From Escherichia phage vB_EcoM-RPN187, in sequence record OL770074.2: DNA of 64,000 nucleotides. One strand, given 5' to 3'. Position numbers and translations under genes: made by a program. This document shows, piece by piece, positions 5,135 through 37,463 of the stretch. Position 1 is the stretch's first letter. Each line of letters begins with the position of its first letter. Below the pieces are notes generated by a model. It saw nothing but the letters and a program-made list of their open reading frames with translations. It had not been told where the DNA came from and ran no database searches.

Positions 5135-7117
5135 ATGGCACTTCTCTCTCCGGGCGTTGAGCTCAAAGAAACTACCGTACAGAGTACTGTAGTTAATAAC
5201 TCCACTGGTACTGCTGCCCTGGCTGGAAAATTCCAATGGGGACCTGCATTCCAGATTAAACAAATCACTGATGAAGTTGCATTGGTTGATATGTTTGGTA
5301 CTCCTAATACGGATACAGCAGATTATTTCATGTCTGCTATGAACTTCCTTCAATATGGTAATGACCTTCGTGTTGTACGCGCAGTTGATCGTGATACCGC
5401 TAAGAACTCATCTCCTGTAGCAGGCAATATTGAATTCACAATCTCTGCTACTGGTAGTAACTATGCAGTTGGTGATAAAATTATCGTTAAGTATTTGACC
5501 GAAACTGTTGAAGCAGATGGTTATGTCACTTCAGTTGATGTCGATGGTAAAATTCTTAACATTTATATCCCAACCGGTAAAATTATTGCTCGTGCAAAAG
5601 AAATTAATGAATATCCGACATTGGGTTCTAATTGGACCGCCGAAGTTGCCAGTTCTTCTTCTGGACTTTCTGGCGTTATTACAATTGGTTCTATCGTAAC
5701 CGATTCGGGTATTCTGTTAACTGAAGTTGAAACTTCTGAAGAAGCTATTACTTCTCTAACTTTCCAAGAATCTATTAAAAAATATGGTGTCCCAGGCGTA
5801 GTTGCTCTTTATCCTGGTGAACTTGGCGACCAGCTCGAAATTGAAATCGTATCTAAAGCAGACTATGACAAAGGTGCTTCAGCCCAGTTAAAAATTTATC
5901 CTGATGGTGGTACTCGTGCATCTACTGCTAAAGCAATCTTTGGATATGGCCCACAAACTGATGACCAATATGCAATTATCGTTCGTCGTAACGATGCTGT
6001 AGTTCAGAGCGTAATTCTTTCTACTAAACGCGGTGAACGCGATATTTATGGTAGTAATATCTTTATTGATGATTTCTTTGCTAAAGGCGCAAGCAATTAT
6101 ATTTTCGCTACTGCACAAGGTTGGCCAAAAGGTTTCTCTGGCGTAATCAAACTGGGTGGCGGCTTATCATCTAATGAAACGGTTGACGCTGGTGATTTAA
6201 TGGAAGCTTGGGATTTGTTTGCTGACCGTGAATCTGTTAATGCGCAGTTGTTTATTGCCGGTTCTTGTGCAGGTGAATCTTTAGAAGTTGCTTCTACAGT
6301 TCAGAAACATGTTGTAGCAATTGGTGATTCTCGCCAAGATTGTTTGGTTCTTTGCTCGCCGCCACGTGCAACTATAGTTGGTATTCCTGTTAATCGTGCA
6401 GTTGATAATCTGGTTGATTGGCGTACTGCGTCAGGAACTTACACTGATAATAACTTTAATATAAGTTCTACTTATGCTGCTATTGACGGTAACTATAAAT
6501 ATCAATATGACAAATATAATGACGTGAATCGTTGGGTTCCATTAGCTGCTGATATTGCTGGTCTTTGTGCTCGCACAGACAATATTTCTCAGCCTTGGAT
6601 GTCTCCCGCCGGTTATAACCGTGGACAAATTCTTAACGTTATTAAGCTTGCAATTGAAACTCGCCAACCACAGCGTGATCGTTTGTATCAGGAAGCTATT
6701 AACCCTGTTACTGGTACCGGCGGTGATGGGTATGTTCTGTATGGTGATAAAACTGCCACTTCTGTTCCTTCACCATTTGACCGTATTAACGTTCGTCGTT
6801 TGTTCAATATGGTTAAAACGAACATTGGTTCAGCATCTAAATATCGCCTGTTTGAATTGAACAACGCATTTACCCGTTCTTCTTTCCGTACAGAGACTTC
6901 TCAATATCTACAGGGTATTAAAGCTCTTGGTGGTGTATATAACTTTAAAGTTGTTTGTGATACTACCAATAACACCCCAGCAGTTATCGACCGTAATGAA
7001 TTTGTAGCTACTTTCTACTTACAACCTGCCCGCTCGATAAATTATATTACGTTGAACTTTGTAGCAACAGCAACTGGTGCCGATTTCGACGAACTAATTG
7101 GTACTGTAAGTGGCTAA
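5135..7117 (+). CDS. 18: tail sheath protein gp18
   Basis: 660 aa; MALLSPGVELKETTVQS N-terminus and length match T4 gp18. Confidence 0.95.
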   Translation: MALLSPGVELKETTVQSTVVNNSTGTAALAGKFQWGPAFQIKQITDEVALVDMFGTPNTDTADYFMSAMNFLQYGNDLRVVRAVDRDTAKNSSPVAGNIEFTISATGSNYAVGDKIIVKYLTETVEADGYVTSVDVDGKILNIYIPTGKIIARAKEINEYPTLGSNWTAEVASSSSGLSGVITIGSIVTDSGILLTEVETSEEAITSLTFQESIKKYGVPGVVALYPGELGDQLEIEIVSKADYDKGASAQLKIYPDGGTRASTAKAIFGYGPQTDDQYAIIVRRNDAVVQSVILSTKRGERDIYGSNIFIDDFFAKGASNYIFATAQGWPKGFSGVIKLGGGLSSNETVDAGDLMEAWDLFADRESVNAQLFIAGSCAGESLEVASTVQKHVVAIGDSRQDCLVLCSPPRATIVGIPVNRAVDNLVDWRTASGTYTDNNFNISSTYAAIDGNYKYQYDKYNDVNRWVPLAADIAGLCARTDNISQPWMSPAGYNRGQILNVIKLAIETRQPQRDRLYQEAINPVTGTGGDGYVLYGDKTATSVPSPFDRINVRRLFNMVKTNIGSASKYRLFELNNAFTRSSFRTETSQYLQGIKALGGVYNFKVVCDTTNNTPAVIDRNEFVATFYLQPARSINYITLNFVATATGADFDELIGTVSG

Positions 7118-7230: not shown

Positions 7231-7722
7231 ATGTTTGTAGATGACGTAACTCGTGCCTTCGAATCAGGTGATTTCGCTCGCCCTAACCTGTTCGAAGTAG
7301 AAATCTCTTATCTTGGGCAAAACTTTAGCTTCCAGTGTCGTGCTACGGCTCTTCCTGCTGCGATCGTTGAAAAGGTTCCTGTTTCTTATATGAACCGTAA
7401 AATTAACGTGGCCGGTGATCGTACATTCGATGATTGGACTATTACAGTAATGAACGATGATGCTCATAGCATTCGTCAGAAATTTGTTGATTGGCAAGGT
7501 ATTGCAGCAGGACAAGGTAATGAAATTACCGGTGGTAAACCTGCTGAATATAAAAAGACCGCTATCGTTCGTCAATTTGCTCGTGATGCTAAAACGGTCA
7601 CTAAAGAAGTTGAAATTGTTGGCTTGTGGCCTACTAACGTTGGTGAAGTATCTCTTGACTGGGACAGCAATAACGAGATTGAAACGTTCGAAGTAACTCT
7701 TGCTCTTGATTGGTGGGAATAA
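7231..7722 (+). CDS. 19: tail tube protein gp19
   Basis: 163 aa; same length and position as T4 gp19. Confidence 0.9.
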   Translation: MFVDDVTRAFESGDFARPNLFEVEISYLGQNFSFQCRATALPAAIVEKVPVSYMNRKINVAGDRTFDDWTITVMNDDAHSIRQKFVDWQGIAAGQGNEITGGKPAEYKKTAIVRQFARDAKTVTKEVEIVGLWPTNVGEVSLDWDSNNEIETFEVTLALDWWE

Positions 7723-7728
7723 TCTGGT

Positions 7729-7744
7729 TGGGGAGAAATCCCCA
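7729..7744 (+). terminator. stem-loop with GAAA tetraloop downstream of gene 19
   Basis: tgggga-gaaa-tcccca read directly; weak U-run. Confidence 0.35.
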
Positions 7745-7770
7745 GCTTCCCGTGATGACGGAGAAGTCCA

Positions 7771-7786
7771 TATAAATATAACTATA
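7771..7786 (+). promoter_or_regulatory. late promoter, 16-bp element TATAAATATAACTATA (copy 2), upstream of gene 20
   Basis: Exact 16-mer, 21 nt upstream of the gene 20 ATG. Confidence 0.65.
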
Positions 7787-7806
7787 ATTCCCATTCGGAG
7801 AATACA

Positions 7807-28517: not shown

Positions 28518-28548
28518 GATAGTATCACACATCCATGTGTTTGTAAAC
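28518..28548 (-). promoter_or_regulatory. T4 early-type promoter for the alt.-1-like gene
   Basis: Reverse complement reads aGTTTACaaacacatggatgtgtgaTACTATc; overlaps the Alt stop codon. Confidence 0.5.
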
Positions 28549-30635
28549 TATCCTTGGACAAATTTAAATGGAACTGATTCTAAATCCATTAAAGATGCTA
28601 ACAATTTCAATCCTTTAGGAGCACTAGTTTTTTCTACAAATGAAGAGAACGATACCGGCTCATCCGATTCGATTTCACCAGTCATAGCAACCACCTCGCC
28701 TGTTTCCATGAGAACATCACCATCGTAAATGACAGCTTCGTCCAACTGGTCTGAGGACATGACTTCAGCTTGAATAAATTTAAGGTTGGATTCTAAACCT
28801 GCACCAGTGTCAGATGACGCATCTGTAATTTTATTTATCTGCAAGAGAATGCCTCTAGGCAAAATAATTTCTTGCTCGTTAGGGTGATTACTCAACTGTC
28901 CAGGATAAATCACGTTAACTTTATGGGCGCCATCAATAGCCCATCCAACGTTAACACGGATTTGGTCTGGTGCATGCATAGCTGTTCTTACTTGACTAGG
29001 AGAAATAGTAACACCTTCGTCATTATTATCAATGTTAAGCTCTTTGCGAACTTCTTCAGGAGCAAGTCCAAGGGCAACGTTCTCTTTAAACCCGCCGAAA
29101 ATAATAGGAGCTAGTGAAGTGGAAACATAGTTTCTGAAGTAGAATACCTTATTTTTAACCATTGCTTCGTAAATAGGCATTCTGATAGACTGAGCTCTAT
29201 ATAACGTTAGTCCTTCAGGTAAACGGTCTCCATTTAAAAACGCCGAATCAAGACCATCAATAGCGCGTTTAACTTCATCTTCATCTGCAACATCGTAAAA
29301 ATCTGGTTTATAACGACCTAACAACATATTATTGATATCGGTATACGCAGAAGAGGCATATTCACGAATAGCTCGTTTTTCAGCAACAGAGTATTGATTA
29401 GGGACCCGATTCATTGTTATATTAAAGGTGCCTCTAGCCGATTCTCGTGCATAAGTATACATCACATTAGACAAGAACGCTGATTTACGCTGTTTCCAAG
29501 TTTTTTCAGATACTTCAGCTAAAACGTCGTCAGCCAGTTGGAAATTATCACGTCTAAAATCTTCAAACCATTCGTCTTTAATAGAGTCTGCAATTTCATT
29601 TGCAGCTTCAACAAAAGCAGCTAATGCTTTAACAGATGTTGTTTTTTCAGTTTTAATTTTCTTAGCAAACTTTTCTAAAGTTGGCTTAATAACACTACCG
29701 TAAGAAACTTCATCAGCAAATCTAAAGGATTCATCAATACGATTATAAATCTTATTTTCGATATCAGCAACTAAAGTGCCTTTTGCTGTGGACGATGCTT
29801 GGGCTAGTACGATTTCATATGCTTCAGGAAGTAATTCGGCTGTAGCTGGGCCACTAACTTCTTTAGCAGAATTTTCGTATTTCTGGAATAACTCACCTTC
29901 TTGACGGTCAGCTTCTAAAGATTGACTTGCTGCAATAGCACGACGAGAAATTTTAGTACGAGCAATAACAGGCTTATCTTTACGTTTTTCTTCTACAGCA
30001 GCAATAGAACCAGCGATAGCAGTTTCTTTGGTGACCATTTCACCAGTCTTTTTACTCACATAAACTTCGCCAACATCAGAATCTACTTTCGTGTACAACT
30101 CTGTGTTAATGTTAGGGATGCCTTTAATATCTTCAATGTTGGCATTTTTACGAACCATCATCACATAGGTGTGTTTACCTGTGAATTGATACATTGCCGA
30201 CAATACTTTAAAACGACCACCGGTTTTAGTAGAAACTAAACGAGCAAGAAGAGTTTGAAGTTGTTGTCCACGTCCTTTCAATTTCTTTGTAGGGAATCGG
30301 AACAGAACTGCATCCATACGAAGAGCTTTAACCTGTTCATATACTGTATTGAAAATGGTGTTGATTGCATCAATAGGAGCAGGACCAAGGCCGTTTTTCA
30401 ATTCAGCGAGATTACCCTTTTCAGACAGACTCATAATAACAACATGAGCGTATTTGTCGCCAAGTTTAACTTGTTTTACAGCATCGCCTTCAGAAAGGTA
30501 AGAGAATAAGCGAACTACGATGTTTGTATCAACATCACCAATTTTCCAGACTTGTGGAACTTTAGCTTTAGGGTTCAAATTGACGACAGGAAGACTGCCT
30601 TCAGATTCAAACACTTCATTTAATTGTTCAGACAT
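28548..30635 (-). CDS. alt: Alt ADP-ribosyltransferase (packaged, modifies host RNA polymerase)
   Basis: 695 aa; C-terminal region has ART-like R (YRAQSIR), STS (YVSTSL) and EQE (NEQEIILP) motifs; position between 54 and 30 as in T4. Confidence 0.8.
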   Translation of the reverse strand: MSEQLNEVFESEGSLPVVNLNPKAKVPQVWKIGDVDTNIVVRLFSYLSEGDAVKQVKLGDKYAHVVIMSLSEKGNLAELKNGLGPAPIDAINTIFNTVYEQVKALRMDAVLFRFPTKKLKGRGQQLQTLLARLVSTKTGGRFKVLSAMYQFTGKHTYVMMVRKNANIEDIKGIPNINTELYTKVDSDVGEVYVSKKTGEMVTKETAIAGSIAAVEEKRKDKPVIARTKISRRAIAASQSLEADRQEGELFQKYENSAKEVSGPATAELLPEAYEIVLAQASSTAKGTLVADIENKIYNRIDESFRFADEVSYGSVIKPTLEKFAKKIKTEKTTSVKALAAFVEAANEIADSIKDEWFEDFRRDNFQLADDVLAEVSEKTWKQRKSAFLSNVMYTYARESARGTFNITMNRVPNQYSVAEKRAIREYASSAYTDINNMLLGRYKPDFYDVADEDEVKRAIDGLDSAFLNGDRLPEGLTLYRAQSIRMPIYEAMVKNKVFYFRNYVSTSLAPIIFGGFKENVALGLAPEEVRKELNIDNNDEGVTISPSQVRTAMHAPDQIRVNVGWAIDGAHKVNVIYPGQLSNHPNEQEIILPRGILLQINKITDASSDTGAGLESNLKFIQAEVMSSDQLDEAVIYDGDVLMETGEVVAMTGEIESDEPVSFSSFVEKTSAPKGLKLLASLMDLESVPFKFVQG

Positions 30636-30649
30636 AGTGTTTTCCTTTT

Positions 30650-30669
30650 AGTAATAATTTATATTTATG
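30650..30669 (-). promoter_or_regulatory. possible late promoter for alt (7/8 matches to TATAAATA)
   Basis: Reverse complement reads gcATAAATATAAATTat about 27 nt upstream of the Alt ATG; not an exact consensus. Confidence 0.3.
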
Positions 30670-30692
30670 CCAAAAAGAGCCCGAAGGCTCTT
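30670..30692 (-). terminator. intrinsic terminator (UUCG on minus strand) downstream of the ligase operon
   Basis: aagagcc-cgaa-ggctctt preceded on plus by AAAAA, which is a U-run on the minus transcript. Confidence 0.55.
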
Positions 30693-30879
30693 AATCCACA
30701 ATCGGGAGCAAAGTACGATAAACTTCAAAATTAGGGCCTTTTTCGTACCCATTAACGTTATCTACGAAAACCCGATACGAATTTTCATTAGGAAAATCTA
30801 ATATAATCTGAGAGCAAGAGGTGGAAACATCTCCACCATCCTTCTTAGCTACAATAACTGTTTCTAAATAAGCTTTCAT
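30691..30879 (-). CDS. hypothetical small protein downstream of DNA ligase
   Basis: ORF-track start is GTG; first ATG at 30879 overlaps the ligase stop (TAATG); 62 aa. Confidence 0.35.
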   Translation of the reverse strand: MKAYLETVIVAKKDGGDVSTSCSQIILDFPNENSYRVFVDNVNGYEKGPNFEVYRTLLPIVD

Positions 30880-32372
30880 TATAAACCTGTCTGGGACCAC
30901 GGTCCAAATACGTCTTCAAATGAATCCGCTTCTGTTTTATCAAAACGGAACCCTTTAATAATTGGAAGGAAAATACCTACAGTACCTTCACGGCCTTTAG
31001 AATGAACCCAACCATTACATTCACAATCAGCGATACGCCCAATTAATTTACCTTCACGAGCTTCGGTCATTAATCGTTCACGGTCCAAATCATGACGCTC
31101 GTCTAAAGGAATAAGAACCTTTACACCGTCAACTGTTTTATGAGTTGTATCTTTAAAACCTGAACCACAATCAGTTGTAATACGACGACAACGTGATACG
31201 AGTTCGACACCACCTAATTTGTTAGGGTCTTTAGAGTGTTCATAGTATCCTACAACTTCTAAAGCGATATCAATAACTTCTTTAAATTTAATTAGGTTCT
31301 TAGATCGTTTGTTTTCCCAATATGAATCACGGTTTTTAAGGATAATACCTTCAAGACCTTGGTCAACATATTTTTTATAAACCGCTTTAGCTTCGTCAAG
31401 ATTACGAACTAACTGATTTTCAATTGGCTCAATTCGCTTAAAGCCTTCAGCCATATTTTCAAGAGCAGCAAAACGAACATCGTATTTCTGACCTTTAATT
31501 TTGCCATCAGAATAGACTTCATCTAAAGGAACATAGTCCCAGGCTTGAAGAACCATACCTTCCGCTTCTTTAGGAGAAATAGTCCCTTGAAGAGATTTAT
31601 TTGCTAAACCATTTGAAGTGCTACGGTCTGCAACTTGTACTTCTTCTGATTCTTCATTATCACCAAATAAGAACGACAGGTCATTTCCTGAGCTCACAGC
31701 CTTTTTAATATCAAATGAATGATAAACTAATTCACCGTCGATTAAAACCCCATTAGGGTGTCTTTCACGAGCTTCTTTAGTCATTTCCATTAGTTCATCC
31801 GCTAATAGAGTAAGACCATGGTATTCGTTACCAGCACGAGAAAAGAATTGAACACCATCATCGCGAACTTCAGCGAAACAACGAGCACCATCTGCTTTTA
31901 ATTGGGCAAATGCTGGCCATTTAATATTTTTAGTAATCAATTTCTCATCATATGCAGATGCTAACATCTGTGGTTGCAATTGAATAAGTCCAGGCCACAC
32001 CTTATTCGCGATAGACACTGAAGCACCTACTTCAAGATCGCGCATCATTACACGACGAAGGACTTCTACATCATCAGGTTTACCATCAGCGATATAACCC
32101 ATGAGCTCTTTAATTGCAGCGTTACCAGTGAGTTTACGAGTGGCTAATGTGAACTCAATAAAATCCAACATGTCATCTAATTCAAGAAGACCATATGCTT
32201 GAGACCTTTCACCCGGTCCTGGCCATTTCTTAATATAATACTGGATACCACGTGCATATGTTAAACGATACACACGTTCAAGTAATTTGTTGTCCTTATT
32301 TTTCTTAAGGATTTCTTGTTTTGTTTTAGTAGAACCGATCGCAGCTATTTTGTTTAAAATATCTAAAATCAT
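30879..32372 (-). CDS. 30: ATP-dependent DNA ligase gp30
   Basis: 497 aa; adenylation motif KADGAR; close to T4 DNA ligase as recalled. Confidence 0.95.
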   Translation of the reverse strand: MILDILNKIAAIGSTKTKQEILKKNKDNKLLERVYRLTYARGIQYYIKKWPGPGERSQAYGLLELDDMLDFIEFTLATRKLTGNAAIKELMGYIADGKPDDVEVLRRVMMRDLEVGASVSIANKVWPGLIQLQPQMLASAYDEKLITKNIKWPAFAQLKADGARCFAEVRDDGVQFFSRAGNEYHGLTLLADELMEMTKEARERHPNGVLIDGELVYHSFDIKKAVSSGNDLSFLFGDNEESEEVQVADRSTSNGLANKSLQGTISPKEAEGMVLQAWDYVPLDEVYSDGKIKGQKYDVRFAALENMAEGFKRIEPIENQLVRNLDEAKAVYKKYVDQGLEGIILKNRDSYWENKRSKNLIKFKEVIDIALEVVGYYEHSKDPNKLGGVELVSRCRRITTDCGSGFKDTTHKTVDGVKVLIPLDERHDLDRERLMTEAREGKLIGRIADCECNGWVHSKGREGTVGIFLPIIKGFRFDKTEADSFEDVFGPWSQTGL

Positions 32373-32638
32373 TTGATGTCCTCGATTTTGGTTACGGTTC
32401 TATTATAAGCCACTTCATCTAGAAGCGATTTCAGCGTTTTCTGATAAGTGGTAATCCATTTACCGAGTCCTTCAACATAGTATTCTGAAATGTAGATGAA
32501 CCCTTGTTCAACACACTCTTTAAATATTTCTGCATCTTTTACTGAACGAAACAACGGCCAGTCTCGAAAGAACATGTTAACGTGACCGTAGTCACGCGTT
32601 GTGTTTTTGCCATCTGTAATATCATGAACTACAAACAT
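32369..32638 (-). CDS. hypothetical protein (T4 30.1 position)
   Basis: 89 aa; ATGA overlap with the ligase start. Confidence 0.5.
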   Translation of the reverse strand: MFVVHDITDGKNTTRDYGHVNMFFRDWPLFRSVKDAEIFKECVEQGFIYISEYYVEGLGKWITTYQKTLKSLLDEVAYNRTVTKIEDIK

Positions 32639-32647
32639 AATTAACCC

Positions 32648-33463
32648 TTAACAATTTGTAGACCAAGTCCATTTGGACGAATCTAAAGGAAAGTTTTGAA
32701 TCGTCCACCATGGCTGCATATCGGTTGGTCCTGGGGTTCGCCAGGTATACGGATTCGACGGAGCGCCAATTTGATTAGGCCATGCGCCTGGACTTGTTGT
32801 ACCAGATTCTTTAAGCAAATCCGCCAATCGTTTTAAAAGGTCTTCATGATCTGAATCTGAATTATGCTCGGGAGGAACCAAACGAGATTCAATATCATCC
32901 CACGTGTGTACACGTTGTGCAGTACGAGGAATGGCATCACGTTCACCACGAGCCAACCAATAAATCGGTACATTAAGAATTTCTGCTGCATGGTCACAAT
33001 GATGAGCTAAATCGTCAACGTAACAAATCACGTTATATTTTGTTTTAGCTAGTTCGAATAATTGTTCCTTTGAAGAATCATGACCACACATCATTACTTC
33101 AGAGAAAGCGCCTGGGAACAAAGCATTCAAATTAAATTGTCTATTCAATCGAGCATCAATTGAATCACCTAGCGCCGTCACGGCTACAAAATTATAGTCT
33201 TCCTTTAGTTTATTGATAACTCGAAGAGCATCAGAATAAGGCGCTAAGTAACGAATAAAATCAGAGCGATTATATTTTTCTATTAATTGTTTACCGAGGT
33301 TATCGTCGGTATTGAATAGTTTACCAGGAGAAATAAATTTTTCGTCCTGAATCATTTTTAAAATATGTTCTAATGGAAGATTATATTTTTGGGCAAAATA
33401 AGGAAGTCCAGATTGCCAGCTTAAACATACACCATCAATATCAGTTAAAATAGTAGGTTTCAT
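32648..33463 (-). CDS. HAD-superfamily phosphatase-like protein (T4 30.2 position)
   Basis: 271 aa; N-terminal ILTDIDGV (HAD motif I, DxDxV) and later YVDD (motif IV-like); Trp/Pro-rich C-terminal tail. Confidence 0.5.
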   Translation of the reverse strand: MKPTILTDIDGVCLSWQSGLPYFAQKYNLPLEHILKMIQDEKFISPGKLFNTDDNLGKQLIEKYNRSDFIRYLAPYSDALRVINKLKEDYNFVAVTALGDSIDARLNRQFNLNALFPGAFSEVMMCGHDSSKEQLFELAKTKYNVICYVDDLAHHCDHAAEILNVPIYWLARGERDAIPRTAQRVHTWDDIESRLVPPEHNSDSDHEDLLKRLADLLKESGTTSPGAWPNQIGAPSNPYTWRTPGPTDMQPWWTIQNFPLDSSKWTWSTNC

Positions 33464-33912
33464 AAAGAGTCTCTTAATAGGTTTAACACATCAATAAATT
33501 CAGCTTCGGTTAGTATTGTATCATCTTTTGTTAGACCGCTAGCCATGCTGTGCTTCAAAATTTTTCCTTTAGAGGCTTGTAAGGCATCACGAAACCCCTT
33601 GTTTTGGATCGCGGCTTCAAAATATGCATTTGTGTATAATTCTTTCCACGCTTCGGAGTATCTTGAAAATGGAACTCCTAACCAGAAGAGAGTCCCACGG
33701 TCCTGAGCTCTTGCATAAGACCTTCCGGCTTGCTGTGCAGCCAATCCAGACAACCTAAATATACGTTTTTGTTGTTCAACATTTTTCACCTTACATCCTT
33801 GGAGAAATCCTTCAAGTCCTCCGAATTGAATACCATCCATAACAAAAGGCCATTGAGCAAAGTTACTTAATGCACATGACGGCCATGGAAAATTGCTTCT
33901 GATTTCAATCAT
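33460..33912 (-). CDS. NADAR/YbiA-like (DUF1768) domain protein (T4 30.3 position)
   Basis: 150 aa; ALSNFAQWP...DG...EGFLQGCK resembles the FSNF-WP-DG-EHYFQAQK core of E. coli YbiA as recalled; motif-level call. Confidence 0.5.
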   Translation of the reverse strand: MIEIRSNFPWPSCALSNFAQWPFVMDGIQFGGLEGFLQGCKVKNVEQQKRIFRLSGLAAQQAGRSYARAQDRGTLFWLGVPFSRYSEAWKELYTNAYFEAAIQNKGFRDALQASKGKILKHSMASGLTKDDTILTEAEFIDVLNLLRDSL

Positions 33913-34103
33913 AGTCTTTTAAGGCTTTTGATAATTTCTAATTCAGAACTCATGCGAACGTCTTCAGTTCCATCGACCCATAGGACGGTGTAGGCTTCTT
34001 TAATTTGTGTATTACCCAATTTAAAAGCAGGTAGAACCTTGGAAATCATGCCAGGAATACCTACACCTTTTAATTGAACTGTTTGTGATAAGAATAGTTG
34101 CAT
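33909..34103 (-). CDS. hypothetical small protein
   Basis: 64 aa; ATG start; ATGA overlap with the upstream gene. Confidence 0.4.
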   Translation of the reverse strand: MQLFLSQTVQLKGVGIPGMISKVLPAFKLGNTQIKEAYTVLWVDGTEDVRMSSELEIIKSLKRL

Positions 34104-34390
34104 TAGAACCTCATCTGAAAGCCATGAGATTTAACATTACCACCATAGATGTCAGAGGTATTGACTTCACGGGCGACACTTGGGTCGATATTGATAACAT
34201 GGTTGAGCTTAGTGATTGCTAGGGTATCCCGACCATTAACAGTACGGAATTCTACTGGGCATACAACATCGGCATAAGCCTTAATAGATTCACGAGTAGG
34301 TTGTTTGTCGGCAGGAACATCTTTACCCGCTTTAGAGAAAACAACTTCACAGAAATTTTTACGAGTATCGAAATAAGTGGTCATAAACAT
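34103..34390 (-). CDS. hypothetical protein
   Basis: Start placed at ATG 34390 (GAGGA 8 nt upstream, 95 aa); the ORF-track ATG at 34423 lies inside a stable hairpin. Confidence 0.4.
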   Translation of the reverse strand: MFMTTYFDTRKNFCEVVFSKAGKDVPADKQPTRESIKAYADVVCPVEFRTVNGRDTLAITKLNHVINIDPSVAREVNTSDIYGGNVKSHGFQMRF

Positions 34391-34406
34391 AATATTTTCC
34401 TCAATG

Positions 34407-34429
34407 GAGGCTTCGGCCTCCATTTTTAA
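34407..34429 (+). other. stable hairpin GGAGGC-UUCG-GCCUCC + T5, plus-strand oriented, inside the minus-strand 30.x cluster
   Basis: ggaggcttcggcctcc followed by atttttaag on plus; the UUCG loop and U-run are on the strand opposite to the local genes. Confidence 0.4.
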
Positions 34430-34431
34430 GA

Positions 34432-34797
34432 TTAGATATCGAATTCGTTAAGAACTACATCAAAGATTGCTTCGAGATGTTCAGGTTTAGCTCGATTGCT
34501 CAGGATGTGACGAATCCAAGTTTTAACCAGAAGTTTACGATTAACACCGTTCCAGCAAGGATGAGTACCTAAATCACGTTGACGGAAATCGTCATCTAAT
34601 GCAATTTTGAAGTTGGAACCTTCCATCGTGATTGAAACCGTGATGCCATTTTCAAATCGCATATAAACGTAATTAGGAGTCATATACTGCTCAATTTCGC
34701 ATACTGAGCCGTTATTATGCTTCCATAAGCAAATTGTATCGATAGAACCAGCGATACAGTTAGAAACATATTTACGTTCGAAGTTGATGTAGTTCAT
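34432..34797 (-). CDS. hypothetical protein
   Basis: 121 aa; ATG at 34797 preceded by GGAGAATAAA; early promoter upstream. Confidence 0.5.
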   Translation of the reverse strand: MNYINFERKYVSNCIAGSIDTICLWKHNNGSVCEIEQYMTPNYVYMRFENGITVSITMEGSNFKIALDDDFRQRDLGTHPCWNGVNRKLLVKTWIRHILSNRAKPEHLEAIFDVVLNEFDI

Positions 34798-34825
34798 TTT
34801 ATTCTCCAGATGTTTAAGTTGTTTG

Positions 34826-34867
34826 TTGGTACAGGTCTATAATAACAAAACCTGTACCAAAGTAAAC
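34826..34867 (-). promoter_or_regulatory. T4 early-type promoter with a 10-bp inverted repeat bracketing the -10 element
   Basis: -35 GTTTAC at 34862-34867; -10 TTATTATAG; perfect inverted repeat TTGGTACAGG (34826-34835) / CCTGTACCAA (34851-34860). Confidence 0.5.
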
Positions 34868-34871
34868 TGTT

Positions 34872-35240
34872 TTATGCAACTTTAATCCAATTGCCTAAAT
34901 TTAAAACACCTTTGGCTTTCATTTTTTCGATCAGGTTATCTGCTGTAATGCGTCCATTTTGATACCATGTAACATCTTCAGAGTAACCAGTTTCTTCGTC
35001 AACATATGTTTCTGAGCGAATTTTACCGGTAATAATAGTTTTTAATTCGTATGTGTCACCAGTGAAAAAGTTTGCTAACACAATTTTCCAAGAGAAATCA
35101 TTTGAAGGACCTTCAGGGGTCATACAACTTATGAACTCAAATTGCTCTTTGTATAACATCCACTGGAATTCTTTAATTTCGATAGCTTTATAACCGTCGT
35201 GGTCTTTACATTTGATGTATGAGTTCAGATTGATTTTCAT
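34872..35240 (-). CDS. hypothetical protein
   Basis: 122 aa; ATG at 35240 preceded by GGAGAATAAA. Confidence 0.5.
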   Translation of the reverse strand: MKINLNSYIKCKDHDGYKAIEIKEFQWMLYKEQFEFISCMTPEGPSNDFSWKIVLANFFTGDTYELKTIITGKIRSETYVDEETGYSEDVTWYQNGRITADNLIEKMKAKGVLNLGNWIKVA

Positions 35241-35278
35241 TTTATTCTCCGGTTGTTTTATTGATTAGGTGGTACAAG

Positions 35279-35310
35279 TCTATAGTAACACATCCTACAG
35301 GAGAGTAAAC
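35279..35310 (-). promoter_or_regulatory. T4 early-type promoter, paralogue of the 34826-34867 promoter
   Basis: Reverse complement reads aGTTTACtctcctgtaggatgtgtTACTATAGACTTGTACCA; shares the GGTACA-GTCTATA-TAACA module. Confidence 0.5.
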
Positions 35311-35342
35311 ATCTTTTTTAAACTTTTTCTGCCCTAAACGCA

Positions 35343-35365
35343 CAAAAGGGAGACCGAAGTCTCCC
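35343..35365 (-). terminator. intrinsic terminator GGGAGAC-UUCG-GUCUCCC (minus strand)
   Basis: Same 18-nt hairpin as at 13137, 50092 and 58417; on the minus strand it is followed by UUUUG. Confidence 0.7.
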
Positions 35366-35370
35366 TAAAA

Positions 35371-35550
35371 TTATGCAACAACCTTTCCAAAACGAGAAGC
35401 ATCATCTCGAAGAACTGCACGTGCTCTGCGCATGATCTTCTCAACTGTTTGATTAATACGAGAGTTCGACCCACGCTTGTATCCAGCGCGTTTAGAGGTA
35501 CCATCAACTTTCTTTTCTACTGCTTTCTTTGCTTTAGCTTGTTTTGCCAT
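35371..35550 (-). CDS. small basic protein, 59 aa
   Basis: Not in ORF track; hand-translated MAKQAKAKKAVEKKVDGTSKRAGYKRGSNSRINQTVEKIMRRARAVLRDDASRFGKVVA; terminator immediately downstream; weak SD. Confidence 0.35.
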   Translation of the reverse strand: MAKQAKAKKAVEKKVDGTSKRAGYKRGSNSRINQTVEKIMRRARAVLRDDASRFGKVVA

Positions 35551-35820
35551 TATAAATTCTCTTTAAATGAAAATGCAGGACTTATTGACATTGCCTGCTC
35601 AAGCCCTCAAGGGGAACATAGGTTTTTGAATATTTAACGACCAGGATAACCATAAACCCGTCATCATACCTACCACGACTTAGACAGATAACCTTTTTCT
35701 GACGCGTGATAGTACAAAATACATTCAAGAGGTACACCGTAAAATTGTCGGGGCGGTACTTCTAAAACATACCGATTCGCAAATCGATAATCAGACAATT
35801 CGACGGCTCCTCGATTTAAC

Positions 35821-36069
35821 TTACTTCAGGGTAATAACAAAATGACGAACTGCTTTACGTGCTGCAGAAGCCAGAGGCTTAGCATATTTCAATTCATCTT
35901 TCTGGACCAGGATATCACGAAGATCAGCTTGTGCTGGATTCAGATGTTTGAAATACTGTAAGATTTCAAGAGCTTCGGCTTCAACATCAATAGATGCACC
36001 GTAATTTTCATGGCCATTATTCCATGCATGGCGTTGCAGTTCAAGAGCGTGTTGTAATTGTTTAATCAT
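35821..36069 (-). CDS. rIII: rIII lysis-inhibition accessory protein
   Basis: 82 aa; MIKQLQHALELQR...VRHFVITLK matches T4 rIII as recalled. Confidence 0.8.
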   Translation of the reverse strand: MIKQLQHALELQRHAWNNGHENYGASIDVEAEALEILQYFKHLNPAQADLRDILVQKDELKYAKPLASAARKAVRHFVITLK

Positions 36070-36193
36070 TTTAAATTCTCAATTCGAGATAATATTTAGT
36101 AGCCACGTTCTTCTGAATTTCACTTTCTTTCGACAAGTCTCTCAGGTGTAGGCTACCGCTTAGAAGAGTGTTCTCTTCATATAGTTATTTATA

Positions 36194-36526
36194 TCACTTA
36201 TAAAGACACGGAATAGCTTTATAGTGGCATGTTACGAATTTCTGTTTAATTTCTTTAGGTTGTTTAAGACCCAAAGCCACAAATGGATGTGGAACATTTC
36301 GAATTTGTCCAACTGGTAGTGGAGTCAAATCACCGACTTCAACAAAACCTTCAGGAACATCAGGACCTACAGAATGAACTACACATAGTTCAGGAACTTC
36401 ACCTTGAACACGTTTACCAATCACAAGTCCTGATTCTGTAACTTCTTCATCACCTGCTTGAGCTGGTTCAGAAACCAGAATGACATATTCACCAACAGCA
36501 CGAATTGGGAGTTGTACTTCAGACAT
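36194..36526 (-). CDS. 31: co-chaperonin gp31 (GroES analogue)
   Basis: 110 aa; near-identical to T4 gp31 as recalled. Confidence 0.9.
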
Positions 36527-36556
36527 CTTATTTCCTTATTGTTTGACGATAGATTA

Positions 36557-36581
36557 ATAATACCATACTATTCGTAAAGCA
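36557..36581 (-). promoter_or_regulatory. MotA-dependent middle promoter for gene 31
   Basis: Reverse complement reads tATGCTTTAc-12 nt-TATTAT, then AAGGA and the ATG. Confidence 0.4.
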
Positions 36582-36583
36582 TA

Positions 36584-36880
36584 TTACATAAGAAGCAAAC
36601 GTTCTACCGGAGTGCCATCAACCGAAATTACTTTATCAAGGCGGAAAGAACGCCACTGACCTAACTTGGTGTCGAATGCTCGAACTGATTCACGAGGTTC
36701 ATAACGAACTTCTGTTGCTGGATTGTTATTTTCGTATTTGACTTCAAGTTCATCGCGCGAAGCAAACATAGTGCGTACCTCGCCGTTAGCCTTTTCAAAT
36801 ACAACACAATGAACGCCTACAGACAGAATAGTTTTAATACGTTCACGAAGAACCATAGTTTCTTGTTCAGTTAAAATCAT
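36584..36880 (-). CDS. hypothetical protein
   Basis: ORF-track start 36892 is GTG; first ATG at 36880 preceded by GGTGA; 98 aa. Confidence 0.45.
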   Translation of the reverse strand: MILTEQETMVLRERIKTILSVGVHCVVFEKANGEVRTMFASRDELEVKYENNNPATEVRYEPRESVRAFDTKLGQWRSFRLDKVISVDGTPVERLLLM

Positions 36881-36881
36881 A

Positions 36882-37463
36882 TTATTCACCACAAAAGTTT
36901 CGGATTTGTTCCCAATTCAGAGAACGAAGATTATTACGAGAGTACTGAATTACTTCAATACCGGCTTGTTTTAGAATGTCTGCCCAATTTTCAGGAGATC
37001 GATCGTATAATTCTGCGTATACAACCTTTTTAATACCTGACTGCGTAATAGCTTTAGTGCAATCAGGACACGGAGAAAGCGTCGTATATAACGTAGCACC
37101 TTCAATAGAATTACCTTTACGAGCTGCAAACAAAATTGCGTTCAGTTCCGCATGGATTTCGTTATTAGCAGACCATGCACTATGAGCCGCTCGATGTTCT
37201 TTAGCCAAAACAAAATTATCTGCCCGTCCAAATGCCGTAGTGCCTTCTTTATGTCCAGCAACGATGACCGGACTTGGTTTATTCTTCAACCAACCATTTT
37301 CGGATGCATGTTCGCAACAGTTAACGCCACCGGCCGGTGAACCATTATATCCAGTAGAGATAATGCGCCCATCTTTTTCAATGACGGCACCAACTTTCCA
37401 TGAACAACATTTTGATTCTTGAGAAATCAAATAAGCAATTTGAAGATATGTGCTAGCTTTCAT
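36882..37463 (-). CDS. cd: dCMP deaminase
   Basis: 193 aa; zinc-binding HAELNAI and SPCPDC motifs; close to T4 Cd as recalled. Confidence 0.9.
   Translation of the reverse strand: MKASTYLQIAYLISQESKCCSWKVGAVIEKDGRIISTGYNGSPAGGVNCCEHASENGWLKNKPSPVIVAGHKEGTTAFGRADNFVLAKEHRAAHSAWSANNEIHAELNAILFAARKGNSIEGATLYTTLSPCPDCTKAITQSGIKKVVYAELYDRSPENWADILKQAGIEVIQYSRNNLRSLNWEQIRNFCGE

What the first reader, a model, noticed from the sequence alone, without database searches (positions are those of the whole stretch)
32648..33912. NADAR/YbiA-like and HAD-like enzymes next to DNA ligase and the Alt ADP-ribosyltransferase
ORF 33460-33912 carries an SNFxxWP...DG...E-x-F-Q-x-x-K core resembling the NADAR (DUF1768, YbiA) fold. 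NADAR proteins are N-glycosidases, and some reverse ADP-ribosylation of guanine. The overlapping upstream ORF 32648-33463 starts with a HAD phosphatase motif I (ILTDIDGV) and has a YVDD motif. Both sit in the ligase operon a few kb from alt (28548-30635), which encodes an ADP-ribosyltransferase with R/STS/EQE motifs. A phage NADAR could counter ADP-ribosylating host defence toxins (DarT-like) or edit ADP-ribose marks; the HAD enzyme could process the released nucleotide or sugar phosphate. This is a motif-level inference, and these may simply be the conserved T4 30.2/30.3 genes whose function is not established.
Basis: inference. Interest (0 to 1): 0.55.

Follow-up and report, generated by a model that had tools for sequence, protein, structure and literature searches.

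The report
Known phage anti-DarT enzyme plus phosphatase
These two overlapping genes of a T4-like phage are the already published anti-defence enzyme AdfN, which strips toxic ADP-ribose marks off phage DNA, and a neighbouring phosphatase-like gene of unknown role that published T4 data show is not needed for that defence.

Summary
Both ORFs are real, but they lie on the minus strand. They are the orthologs of T4 genes 30.3 and 30.2 in an RB69-like phage (genus Mosigvirus).

ORF 33460-33912 is AdfN. [quoted passage not shown] The window copy keeps the catalytic Glu and Lys, the phage-specific His in the last strand, and the C-terminal helix. That helix is lost by a frameshift in RB69, the type phage of the genus. 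This copy is therefore predicted to be active.

ORF 32648-33463 is gp30.2. All four HAD phosphatase motifs are conserved in its family, and its confident model is a HAD fold with a helical cap. The nearest sequence and Foldseek matches are 5'(3')-deoxyribonucleotidases. A fast-evolving, disordered, Trp/Pro-rich tail follows the domain.

The proposed NADAR-HAD partnership is not supported. In the published T4 transposon data, 30.3 insertions are lost on DarTG1 (log2FC -7.25) while 30.2 insertions are unaffected (-0.12, p = 0.61). The two genes also lie about 55 kb apart in Yersinia phage phiR1-RT.

Only the function of gp30.2 remains open.

The parts
33460..33912 (-). adfN (T4 gene 30.3 ortholog), 150 aa: an intact phage NADAR DNA ADP-ribosylglycohydrolase
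   Evidence: Pfam PF08010, E=1e-68, full length. 94.7% identical to T4 gp30.3/AdfN. The family profile hits YbiA 2b3w at E=8.7e-4. The AF2 model (pLDDT 81.6, pTM 0.81) matches only NADAR structures 2b3w, 8bat and 8bau.
33790..33813 (-). Catalytic core E34-G-F-L-Q-G-C-K41 of AdfN (equals T4 E36...K43)
   Evidence: Coordinates and sequence verified and aligned to T4. E34 is invariant and K41 nearly invariant in the family alignment. E36A and K43A mutations impair T4 AdfN (PMC11825919).
33550..33552 (-). H121 of AdfN, in the last beta-strand (LKHS, 33547-33558): the hallmark residue of the phage gp30.3 NADAR subfamily
   Evidence: Invariant in alignment A5. The strand at 119-122 is in the AF2 model. 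PMC11125620 states that His replaces the Glu of YbiA and the Asp of DarG1-type NADARs.
33463..33507 (-). C-terminal helix of AdfN (EAEFIDVLNLLRDSL, residues 136-150), present here but lost in RB69 by a frameshift
   Evidence: The DNA alignment shows RB69 reads AACTTGAAG where the window and T4 read AAC-CGAAG. The protein alignment is and the helix at 136-149 is in the model. Truncating T4 AdfN at this point reduces activity (PMC11825919).
33460..33463 (-). ATGA overlap: the stop codon of adfN overlaps the start codon of gene 30.2 (translational coupling). The upstream junction 30.4/adfN at 33909-33912 is also ATGA.
   Evidence: Read directly from the sequence.
32879..33463 (-). gp30.2 HAD-superfamily phosphatase domain with a helical C1 cap, residues 1-195
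32648..32878 (-). gp30.2 C-terminal extension, with its stop codon at 32648-32650: a predicted helix at residues 203-220, then a disordered Thr/Pro/Trp-rich tail at residues 221-271
   Evidence: pLDDT is below 50 over most of 227-265. Identity to T4 is 27%, against 86% for the HAD domain. The extension is absent or unrelated in many homologs. Composition is given.
30879..32372 (-). Context: gene 30, ATP-dependent DNA ligase
   Evidence: PF01068, E=1.2e-26.
32369..32638 (-). Context: gene 30.1 (DUF3045)
   Evidence: PF11243, E=1.4e-26.
28548..30635 (-). Context: alt, a virion-packaged ADP-ribosyltransferase
   Evidence: PF03496, E=3.9e-28. Annotated as Alt in AV113, T4 and RB69.

Best explanation
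The 1.26-kb stretch holds two translationally coupled genes of the T4-type cluster that lies upstream of the ligase gene, in a Mosigvirus (RB69-like) phage.

Gene 33460-33912 (minus strand) is adfN, the ortholog of T4 gene 30.3. It encodes a stand-alone NADAR-fold N-glycosidase. When a host DarT1 toxin ADP-ribosylates guanines in the replicating phage DNA, AdfN cleaves the guanine-ADP-ribose bond. This releases ADP-ribose and restores the base, so replication can continue. The activity and the phenotype were shown for the T4 ortholog. For this copy they are inferred from 95% identity and intact catalytic residues. Unlike the frameshifted RB69 allele, this copy is full length, so this phage is predicted to resist DarTG1.

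Gene 32648-33463 (minus strand) is gene 30.2. It most likely encodes a Mg2+-dependent phosphomonoesterase of the HAD superfamily with a C1 cap. Asp8 would act as the nucleophile and Asp10 as the general acid/base. The most likely substrate is a (deoxy)nucleoside monophosphate or a similar small phosphoester. The chemistry is inferred from motifs and fold, and the substrate only from the nearest relatives. It appears to act independently of AdfN. It is dispensable in the laboratory, and its biological role is unknown.
For: AdfN
- PF08010 full-length match at 229.9 bits.
- 94.7% identity to T4 AdfN, with E34 and K41 aligned to T4 E36 and K43.
- H121 lies in the last strand and is invariant. This matches the definition of the phage NADAR subfamily (PMC11125620).
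- The C-terminal helix is intact, with no RB69-type insertion.
- The family profile hits YbiA alone in the PDB, E=8.7e-4.
- The three NADAR structures are the only Foldseek hits with probability above 0.8.
- Published work on T4 AdfN shows guanine-ADPr hydrolysis in vitro, loss of DarTG1 resistance on deletion, and impaired E36A and K43A mutants (PMC11825919; PMC11125620).
- HIDEN-SEQ independently shows 30.3 insertions lost on DarTG1, log2FC -7.25.
- The pattern of codon differences from T4 points to purifying selection: 31 synonymous against 8 nonsynonymous.

gp30.2
- The four HAD motifs are conserved in 44 homologs.
- The AF2 model has pLDDT above 90 for residues 1-195, with canonical placement of the motifs at strand ends.
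- Foldseek's top hit is mouse cytosolic 5'(3')-deoxyribonucleotidase (E=5e-8), followed by further cdN/mdN entries and a bacterial deoxyribonucleotidase-like protein.
- The only HAD protein found in the PDB by sequence is cdN 2jao. In that alignment W16 pairs with the Phe six residues after the second Asp.
- NT5C is the Pfam family hit by the most homologs, 8 of 44.
- DxD plus DD is the phosphatase-type motif set, not the dehalogenase type (established knowledge of the HAD superfamily).
- In the HAD domain, 73 codons differ synonymously and 27 nonsynonymously from T4.

Independence of the two genes
- T4 30.2 insertions are neutral on DarTG1 (log2FC -0.12, p=0.61) and in M9 medium (log2FC -0.10, p=0.61), and the gene is non-essential with 72 of 72 sites hit.
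- In phiR1-RT, 30.2 stays beside ligase and alt at about 130 kb, while the AdfN homolog is at 75 kb.
- Seven divergent AdfN loci have no 30.2 within 6 kb.
Against: AdfN
- No experiment exists on this exact allele. It differs from T4 AdfN at 8 residues and is 2 residues shorter at the N-terminus.
- The window protein itself does not hit Pfam NADAR PF08719. Homologs reach only E of about 2e-4, below the Pfam cut-off.
- T4 AdfN fails to neutralise DarT1 outside a T-even infection, so the mechanism has an unidentified additional requirement.

gp30.2
- All Pfam and NCBIfam HAD hits are below their curated thresholds.
- The profile search against the PDB gives cdN only at E=0.46, among noise hits.
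- No phenotype is known in any tested condition.
- The transposon data are from T4, whose gp30.2 is only 72% identical overall and has a different tail.
- Tight adjacency with a 4-nt overlap in 21 of 28 loci leaves some room for a shared role under untested conditions.
Confidence: 0.85

Rival explanations
1. gp30.2 is the missing T-even-specific partner of AdfN. The HAD enzyme would process the released ADP-ribose or a phosphorylated intermediate, or would recruit AdfN, and AdfN would need it for full anti-DarTG1 activity.
For: The two genes overlap by ATGA and are adjacent in 21 of 28 loci. T4 AdfN works fully only during T-even infection, and the authors suggest that another T-even protein is needed. 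In bacteria, ADP-ribosylglycohydrolase genes are often coupled to phosphatases, including HAD 5'-nucleotidases (PMC9503650).
Against: In T4 HIDEN-SEQ on DarTG1, the 71 insertion sites in 30.2 give log2FC -0.12 (p=0.61), against -7.25 for 30.3. Only 30.3 and its upstream neighbour 30.4 are significant. Plasmid-borne adfN alone rescues RB69, although RB69 does carry its own 30.2. The two genes are 55 kb apart in phiR1-RT. 30.2 is absent near AdfN in 7 divergent loci.
Confidence: 0.04
2. AdfN's main natural substrate is not DarT1-modified DNA. It could instead be soluble ADP-ribose-derived immune signals, or marks made by the phage's own ADP-ribosyltransferases (Alt, ModA, ModB), with the anti-DarTG1 effect being one facet of that.
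For: [quoted passage not shown] The gene sits about 3 kb from alt. The family is far more widespread (1,385 clusters) than would be expected from a single defence system.
Against: The T4 enzyme has been shown directly to act on guanine-ADPr DNA, and it has a strong, specific DarTG1 phenotype. alt insertions are neutral on DarTG1. 30.3 is dispensable without DarTG1. No activity on other substrates has been reported in the papers read.
Confidence: 0.1
3. gp30.2 is a HAD-fold protein that is not a nucleotidase. It could be a sugar-phosphate or phosphoglycolate-type phosphatase, or a polynucleotide 3'-phosphatase-like end-processing enzyme working with the adjacent ligase.
Against: Sequence-level matches favour NT5C, and so does the top Foldseek hit. 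Pnkp-type phosphatases lack the large C1 cap that this model has at residues 16-86 (established HAD classification). No data on substrate exist.
Confidence: 0.3

Closest known systems
T4 AdfN (gp30.3), anti-DarT factor NADAR (Johannesman et al., Nat Commun 2025, PMC11825919; Cihlova et al., Toxins 2024, PMC11125620)
   Same: 94.7% identical. It occupies the same position between 30.4 and 30.2, upstream of ligase. It has the same catalytic Glu and Lys, the same last-strand His and the same C-terminal helix.
   Different: Two residues shorter at the N-terminus, with 8 substitutions. It is carried by a Mosigvirus rather than a Tequatrovirus. This allele has not been tested experimentally.
RB69 gp30.3 (the truncated AdfN allele)
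   Same: Same genus. 96% identical over the shared 135 residues. The neighbouring gp30.2 is 99% identical.
   Different: RB69 has an insertion (AACTTGAAG versus AAC-CGAAG) that creates a stop codon and removes the last 15 residues. RB69 is DarTG1-sensitive. The window allele is intact. The RB69-type sequence had no exact match in IMG/VR.
DarG1 / BC4488-type NADAR antitoxins (G. lovleyi 8bat) and E. coli YbiA (2b3w)
   Same: Same fold. The SNF..WP...DG...E......K core is shared with YbiA. The guanine-ADPr hydrolase chemistry is shared.
   Different: The window protein is an orphan with no DarT partner. It has His instead of Asp (DarG1) or Glu (YbiA) in the last strand. T4 AdfN cannot replace DarG1 in uninfected cells. 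It belongs to Pfam PF08010, not PF08719.
Cytosolic and mitochondrial 5'(3')-deoxyribonucleotidases (cdN/mdN, Pfam NT5C; 2jao, 2i7d, 1mh9) and S. epidermidis 3bwv
   Same: HAD core plus helical C1 cap. The motif I context DxDGV....[F/W] is shared. These are the top Foldseek hit and the only PDB HAD protein found by sequence.

Membership tests
Phage gp30.3 / AdfN subfamily of the NADAR superfamily | Full-length match to Pfam PF08010 (Phage_30_3) above the gathering score | tested here: met
   229.9 bits against a cut-off of 36. Residues 10-148 match profile positions 2-138 of 138.
Phage gp30.3 / AdfN subfamily of the NADAR superfamily | Catalytic Glu and Lys (T4 E36 and K43) | tested here: met
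   E34 and K41 align to T4 E36 and K43. E34 is invariant and K41 nearly invariant in the family alignment. Coordinates 33790-33813.
Phage gp30.3 / AdfN subfamily of the NADAR superfamily | Histidine in the last beta-strand, where YbiA has Glu and DarG1-type NADARs have Asp (PMC11125620) | tested here: met
   H121 lies in the model strand 119-122 (LKHS) and is invariant in A5.
Phage gp30.3 / AdfN subfamily of the NADAR superfamily | Intact C-terminal helix, required for full activity | tested here: met
   Residues 136-150 are present and identical to T4. The RB69 frameshift is absent.
Phage gp30.3 / AdfN subfamily of the NADAR superfamily | Hydrolysis of guanine-ADP-ribose on DNA, and rescue of the phage from DarTG1 | not testable with these tools
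   Shown for the T4 ortholog only.
NADAR superfamily (YbiA fold) | Match to Pfam PF08719 (NADAR) above the gathering score | tested here: not met
   No PF08719 hit for the window protein at E<=1. Three homologs hit it at E=1.6e-4 to 3.8e-4, at 21-22 bits against a cut-off of 35.1. TIGR02464 gives E=0.095. PF08010 is a separate Pfam model for this divergent branch.
NADAR superfamily (YbiA fold) | [quoted passage not shown] | tested here: met
   AF2 model with pLDDT 81.6 and pTM 0.81. Foldseek hits are 2b3w (E=2e-4, TM 0.59), 8bat (probability 0.97) and 8bau (probability 0.82); nothing else scores above probability 0.04. The profile hits YbiA at E=8.7e-4.
HAD superfamily phosphatases | Motif I DxDx[T/V] at the end of strand 1 | tested here: met
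   D8-I-D10-G-V follows strand 4-7. D8, D10 and G11 are invariant in 44 homologs.
HAD superfamily phosphatases | Motif II (Ser/Thr), motif III (Lys) and motif IV (DD) | tested here: met
   T96 lies at the end of strand 91-96 and is nearly invariant. K132 is invariant, just before helix 133-142. D150-D151 lie at the end of strand 145-150 and are nearly invariant.
HAD superfamily phosphatases | Rossmannoid HAD core with a cap domain | tested here: met
HAD superfamily phosphatases | Pfam or NCBIfam HAD model above the curated cut-off | tested here: not met
   HAD_2 scores 15.5 bits against 23.8. TIGR01428 scores 12.8 against 125.4. The best value among 44 homologs is E=3.5e-4 for PF00702.
NT5C 5'(3')-deoxyribonucleotidase family (PF06941) | Pfam PF06941 match | tested here: not met
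   No hit for the window protein. Eight of 44 homologs hit it at best E=0.002, below threshold.
NT5C 5'(3')-deoxyribonucleotidase family (PF06941) | Closest structural neighbour is cdN/mdN rather than another HAD family | tested here: inconclusive
NT5C 5'(3')-deoxyribonucleotidase family (PF06941) | Dephosphorylation of dNMPs | not testable with these tools
   No biochemical data on gp30.2 were found in the papers searched.

The most novel reading that the evidence does not exclude
gp30.2 could be an unrecognised phage accessory enzyme with a role of its own. It would be a cap-type HAD nucleotidase that removes a specific (deoxy)nucleotide or nucleotide-derived immune or toxic metabolite during infection. 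Its fast-evolving Trp/Pro-rich tail would dock it onto a host or phage partner. Its phenotype would appear only on hosts carrying a defence or metabolic condition that has not yet been tested. A still less likely variant is that it supplies the unexplained T-even-specific context that AdfN requires.
Probability: 0.12. Interest if true: 0.5.

Novelty: already known. Interest (0 to 1): 0.15.

Why it matters
The practical value is correct annotation. In the closest public genomes (AV112, AV113 and most others) both genes are still labelled 'hypothetical protein'. The first can now be named adfN.

Its intact state predicts that this Mosigvirus, unlike the genus type phage RB69, resists DarTG1. That is useful for host-range prediction and for choosing phages for therapy.

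The analysis also removes an attractive but wrong idea, that the adjacent HAD gene is AdfN's partner. It isolates gp30.2 as a widely conserved gene under purifying selection that is still uncharacterised. It is present in about 1,400 phage records, and a simple phosphatase substrate screen could resolve its function.

Tried and rejected
- Direct Pfam NADAR and HAD hits for the window proteins: none above threshold. NCBIfam gave only noise-level hits.
- Single-sequence search against the PDB gave only suggestive E-values: YbiA 0.25 and cdN 0.52. The gp30.2 family profile did not improve the cdN hit (E=0.46, among unrelated hits).
- The sigma-70 promoter and terminator scan of 30600-36200 was at chance level: 17 found against 17.8 expected for promoters, and 3 against 3.3 for terminators. 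It says nothing about transcription units.
- The hypothesis that gp30.2 is the T-even cofactor of AdfN was considered and rejected, on the T4 transposon data and on broken synteny.
- A functional link to alt was considered and rejected. Only proximity supports it, and alt is neutral on DarTG1.
- Literature searches for gp30.2 or 'gene 30.2' found nothing on its function.
- T4's annotated internal ORF 30.3' was checked as a possible extra gene. It is interrupted by a stop codon in this window.
- Exact-match counts of the RB69-type and intact alleles in IMG/VR (0 against 4) are too small to give a frequency.
- The homologous-protein search for gp30.3 returned only 23 close relatives. The exhaustive representative search was needed to see the breadth of the family.
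Full report
OBSERVATION

Both ORFs exist at exactly the coordinates given, but on the minus strand. In the direction of transcription, the 150-aa ORF 33460-33912 comes first. The 271-aa ORF 32648-33463 follows it, overlapping by the four bases ATGA.

The quoted motifs are all present: SNFAQWP at residues 16-22, DG at 26-27, and ILTDIDGV and YVDD in the second ORF.

The stated neighbours are confirmed. ATP-dependent DNA ligase lies at 30879-32372 and the Alt ADP-ribosyltransferase at 28548-30635, with DUF3045 (30.1), gp30.7 and gp30.8 around them.

The window comes from a T4-like phage of the genus Mosigvirus. The closest records are Escherichia phages AV112 and AV113, at 98.4% DNA identity. 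Gene order matches T4 and RB69.

ORF 33460-33912 IS adfN (T4 GENE 30.3)

It matches Pfam PF08010 (Phage_30_3) over its full length, at 229.9 bits against a cut-off of 36. It is 94.7% identical to T4 gp30.3.

That T4 protein has been characterised.
- Cihlova et al. 2024 (PMC11125620) showed that it hydrolyses guanine-linked but not thymine-linked ADP-ribose on DNA.
- Johannesman et al. 2025 (PMC11825919) renamed it AdfN, for anti-DarT factor NADAR. They showed it is necessary for T4 to resist the DarTG1 toxin-antitoxin defence and sufficient to rescue RB69. E36A and K43A mutations impair it. RB69 is DarTG1-sensitive because a one-base insertion truncates its allele by 15 residues.
- An independent transposon screen (HIDEN-SEQ, bioRxiv 10.1101/2025.11.20.689424) found T4 30.3 insertions lost on DarTG1, with log2FC -7.25 and adjusted p of 0.

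I tested the defining features on the window protein.
- E34 and K41 align with T4 E36 and K43.
- H121 is the histidine in the last strand that distinguishes phage NADARs from YbiA (Glu) and DarG1-type NADARs (Asp). It is invariant in the family alignment and lies in strand 119-122 of the model.
- The C-terminal helix (residues 136-150) is intact. RB69 reads AACTTGAAG where the window and T4 read AAC-CGAAG.
- A profile of the family finds exactly one PDB sequence, E. coli YbiA, at E=8.7e-4.
- The AlphaFold model (pLDDT 81.6, pTM 0.81) matches only three structures with meaningful probability: YbiA 2b3w, Geobacter lovleyi NADAR 8bat and Phytophthora NADAR-ADPr 8bau. These are the same three reported for T4 AdfN.

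The window protein has no PF08719 hit, and homologs reach only about E=2e-4. This reflects Pfam keeping a separate model for this divergent branch, not absence of the fold.

Between this phage and T4, 31 codons of adfN differ synonymously and 8 nonsynonymously. AdfN is far more conserved (95%) than ligase (66%) or Alt (44%).

Conclusion: this is an intact, presumably active adfN allele. This Mosigvirus is predicted to resist DarTG1, unlike RB69.

ORF 32648-33463 IS GENE 30.2, A HAD-FOLD PHOSPHATASE-LIKE PROTEIN

It is 99% identical to RB69 gp30.2 and 72% identical to T4 gp30.2. It belongs to phrog_420, a family of unknown function.

Curated HAD models score below their thresholds, but the motif and fold evidence is consistent.
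- In an alignment of 44 homologs, the four HAD motifs are invariant or nearly so: D8-x-D10-G, T96, K132 and D150-D151.
- The AlphaFold model is confident over residues 1-195 (pLDDT above 90). It places each motif at the canonical strand end and has a helical C1 cap at residues 16-86.
- Foldseek gives 105 PDB hits at E<=1e-3, and all those listed are HAD-family entries. Mouse cytosolic 5'(3')-deoxyribonucleotidase is first, at E=5e-8.
- The DxD plus DD motif set marks the phosphatase type rather than the dehalogenase type (established knowledge of the HAD superfamily).

The nucleotidase suggestion rests on four weaker observations.
- cdN is the only HAD protein in the PDB found by sequence.
- In that alignment W16 pairs with a Phe of cdN six residues after the second Asp. 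From memory of the cdN/mdN structures, that Phe stacks on the base of the bound nucleotide. This is a lead, not a test.
- NT5C is the Pfam family hit by the most homologs, 8 of 44.
- cdN is the top Foldseek hit.

I rate 'phosphomonoesterase' as likely and 'nucleotidase' as only the best guess.

Residues 196-271 form a predicted helix followed by a disordered Thr/Pro/Trp-rich tail. The tail is only 27% identical to T4, against 86% for the domain, and many homologs lack it.

DO THE TWO GENES WORK TOGETHER?

The idea is attractive. T4 AdfN works fully only during a T-even infection, and its discoverers suspect that another T-even protein is needed. The evidence is against gp30.2 being that protein.
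- In the T4 transposon library grown on DarTG1, 71 insertion sites in 30.2 give log2FC -0.12 (p=0.61). The only significant genes are 30.3 and its upstream neighbour 30.4 (log2FC -1.79, probably polarity).
- 30.2 is also neutral in M9 against LB medium and is non-essential.
- Across 28 loci, 30.2 immediately follows 30.3 in 21. It is 1 kb away in one, and absent within 6 kb in the seven most divergent.
- In Yersinia phage phiR1-RT, 30.2 stays beside ligase and alt at about 130 kb, while the AdfN homolog sits at 75 kb.

The adjacency is therefore lineage synteny with translational coupling, not an obligate functional pair. Likewise, nothing beyond proximity links either gene to alt, and alt insertions are neutral on DarTG1.

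COMPARISON WITH WHAT IS KNOWN, AND NOVELTY

The first gene is a member of an experimentally characterised family (AdfN, gp30.3 NADAR), and every testable defining feature is met.

The second is a member of the HAD superfamily by motifs and fold. It is not demonstrably a member of any curated HAD family. Some GenBank records already label homologs as 'HAD-like hydrolase', 'putative phosphatase' or '5' nucleotidase'.

The finding is therefore already known. What remains open is the substrate and role of gp30.2 and the unexplained dependence of AdfN on the T-even context. My evidence argues that these two questions are not linked.

SCORES

Interest is 0.15. The most novel reading not excluded is that gp30.2 is an accessory or counter-defence nucleotidase with a partner-docking tail. 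I give that a probability of about 0.12, and it would be of moderate interest if true.

Noticed in passing
window 33555-33782 (minus strand); T4 locus L002:7403-7630: T4's annotated internal out-of-frame ORF 30.3' (75 aa) is interrupted by a stop codon after 34 codons in this phage. It is not conserved and is probably not a real gene.
   Followed up: yes
window 32651-32803 (gp30.2 residues 221-271): The tail is disordered and rich in Thr, Pro and Trp (8, 8 and 6 of 51 residues). It evolves far faster than the HAD domain: 27% against 86% identity to T4. Only a TWRTPG motif is shared with T4. It may be a docking motif for an unknown partner.
   Followed up: partly
window 28548-37463 compared with T4 locus L002: Protein identity to T4 is strongly mosaic along the operon. 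AdfN is 95%, gp30.7 97%, gp30.9 95% and gp31 97% identical. Alt is 44%, ligase 66%, gp30.1 58%, the gene in the 30.4 position 33% and gp30.8 44%. This suggests differing constraint or exchange between genera.
   Followed up: partly
proteins P0225, P0240, P0145, P0236: In metagenomic proteins, gp30.3-type NADAR domains are fused to prolipoprotein diacylglyceryl transferase (Lgt), an FtsW/RodA-like membrane domain, a GDSL lipase and BspA-type leucine-rich repeats. These partners are unexpected for a DNA de-ADP-ribosylase. I did not check whether any are gene-calling artefacts.
   Followed up: no
L027:6004-6447 and L016:6001-6342: In a 256-kb IMG/VR contig the AdfN homolog is split into two ORFs (6004-6207 and 6295-6447). 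In L016 the match starts at residue 37. Both may be further natural loss-of-function alleles besides RB69's.
   Followed up: no
window 33909-34103 (minus strand); T4 gene 30.4: In the T4 HIDEN-SEQ data, 30.4 is the only other gene significantly depleted on DarTG1 (log2FC -1.79, adjusted p 0.014). This is probably a polar effect on 30.3, but that is untested. The gene in this position in the window is only 33% identical to T4 30.4.
   Followed up: no
RB69 locus L003:9268-9681; IMG/VR scans: The RB69-type frameshift sequence (ACAATACTAACTTGAAGCTGAATT) has no exact match in IMG/VR, while the intact version has 4. The truncation may therefore be peculiar to RB69 or its laboratory lineage.
   Followed up: partly
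L026:6446-7177 and 7456-7788: In one divergent phage contig, the AdfN homolog is followed by two ORFs that look like HD-domain phosphohydrolases by eye. This would be a different phosphohydrolase neighbour in place of the HAD gene. It was not tested with profiles.
   Followed up: no
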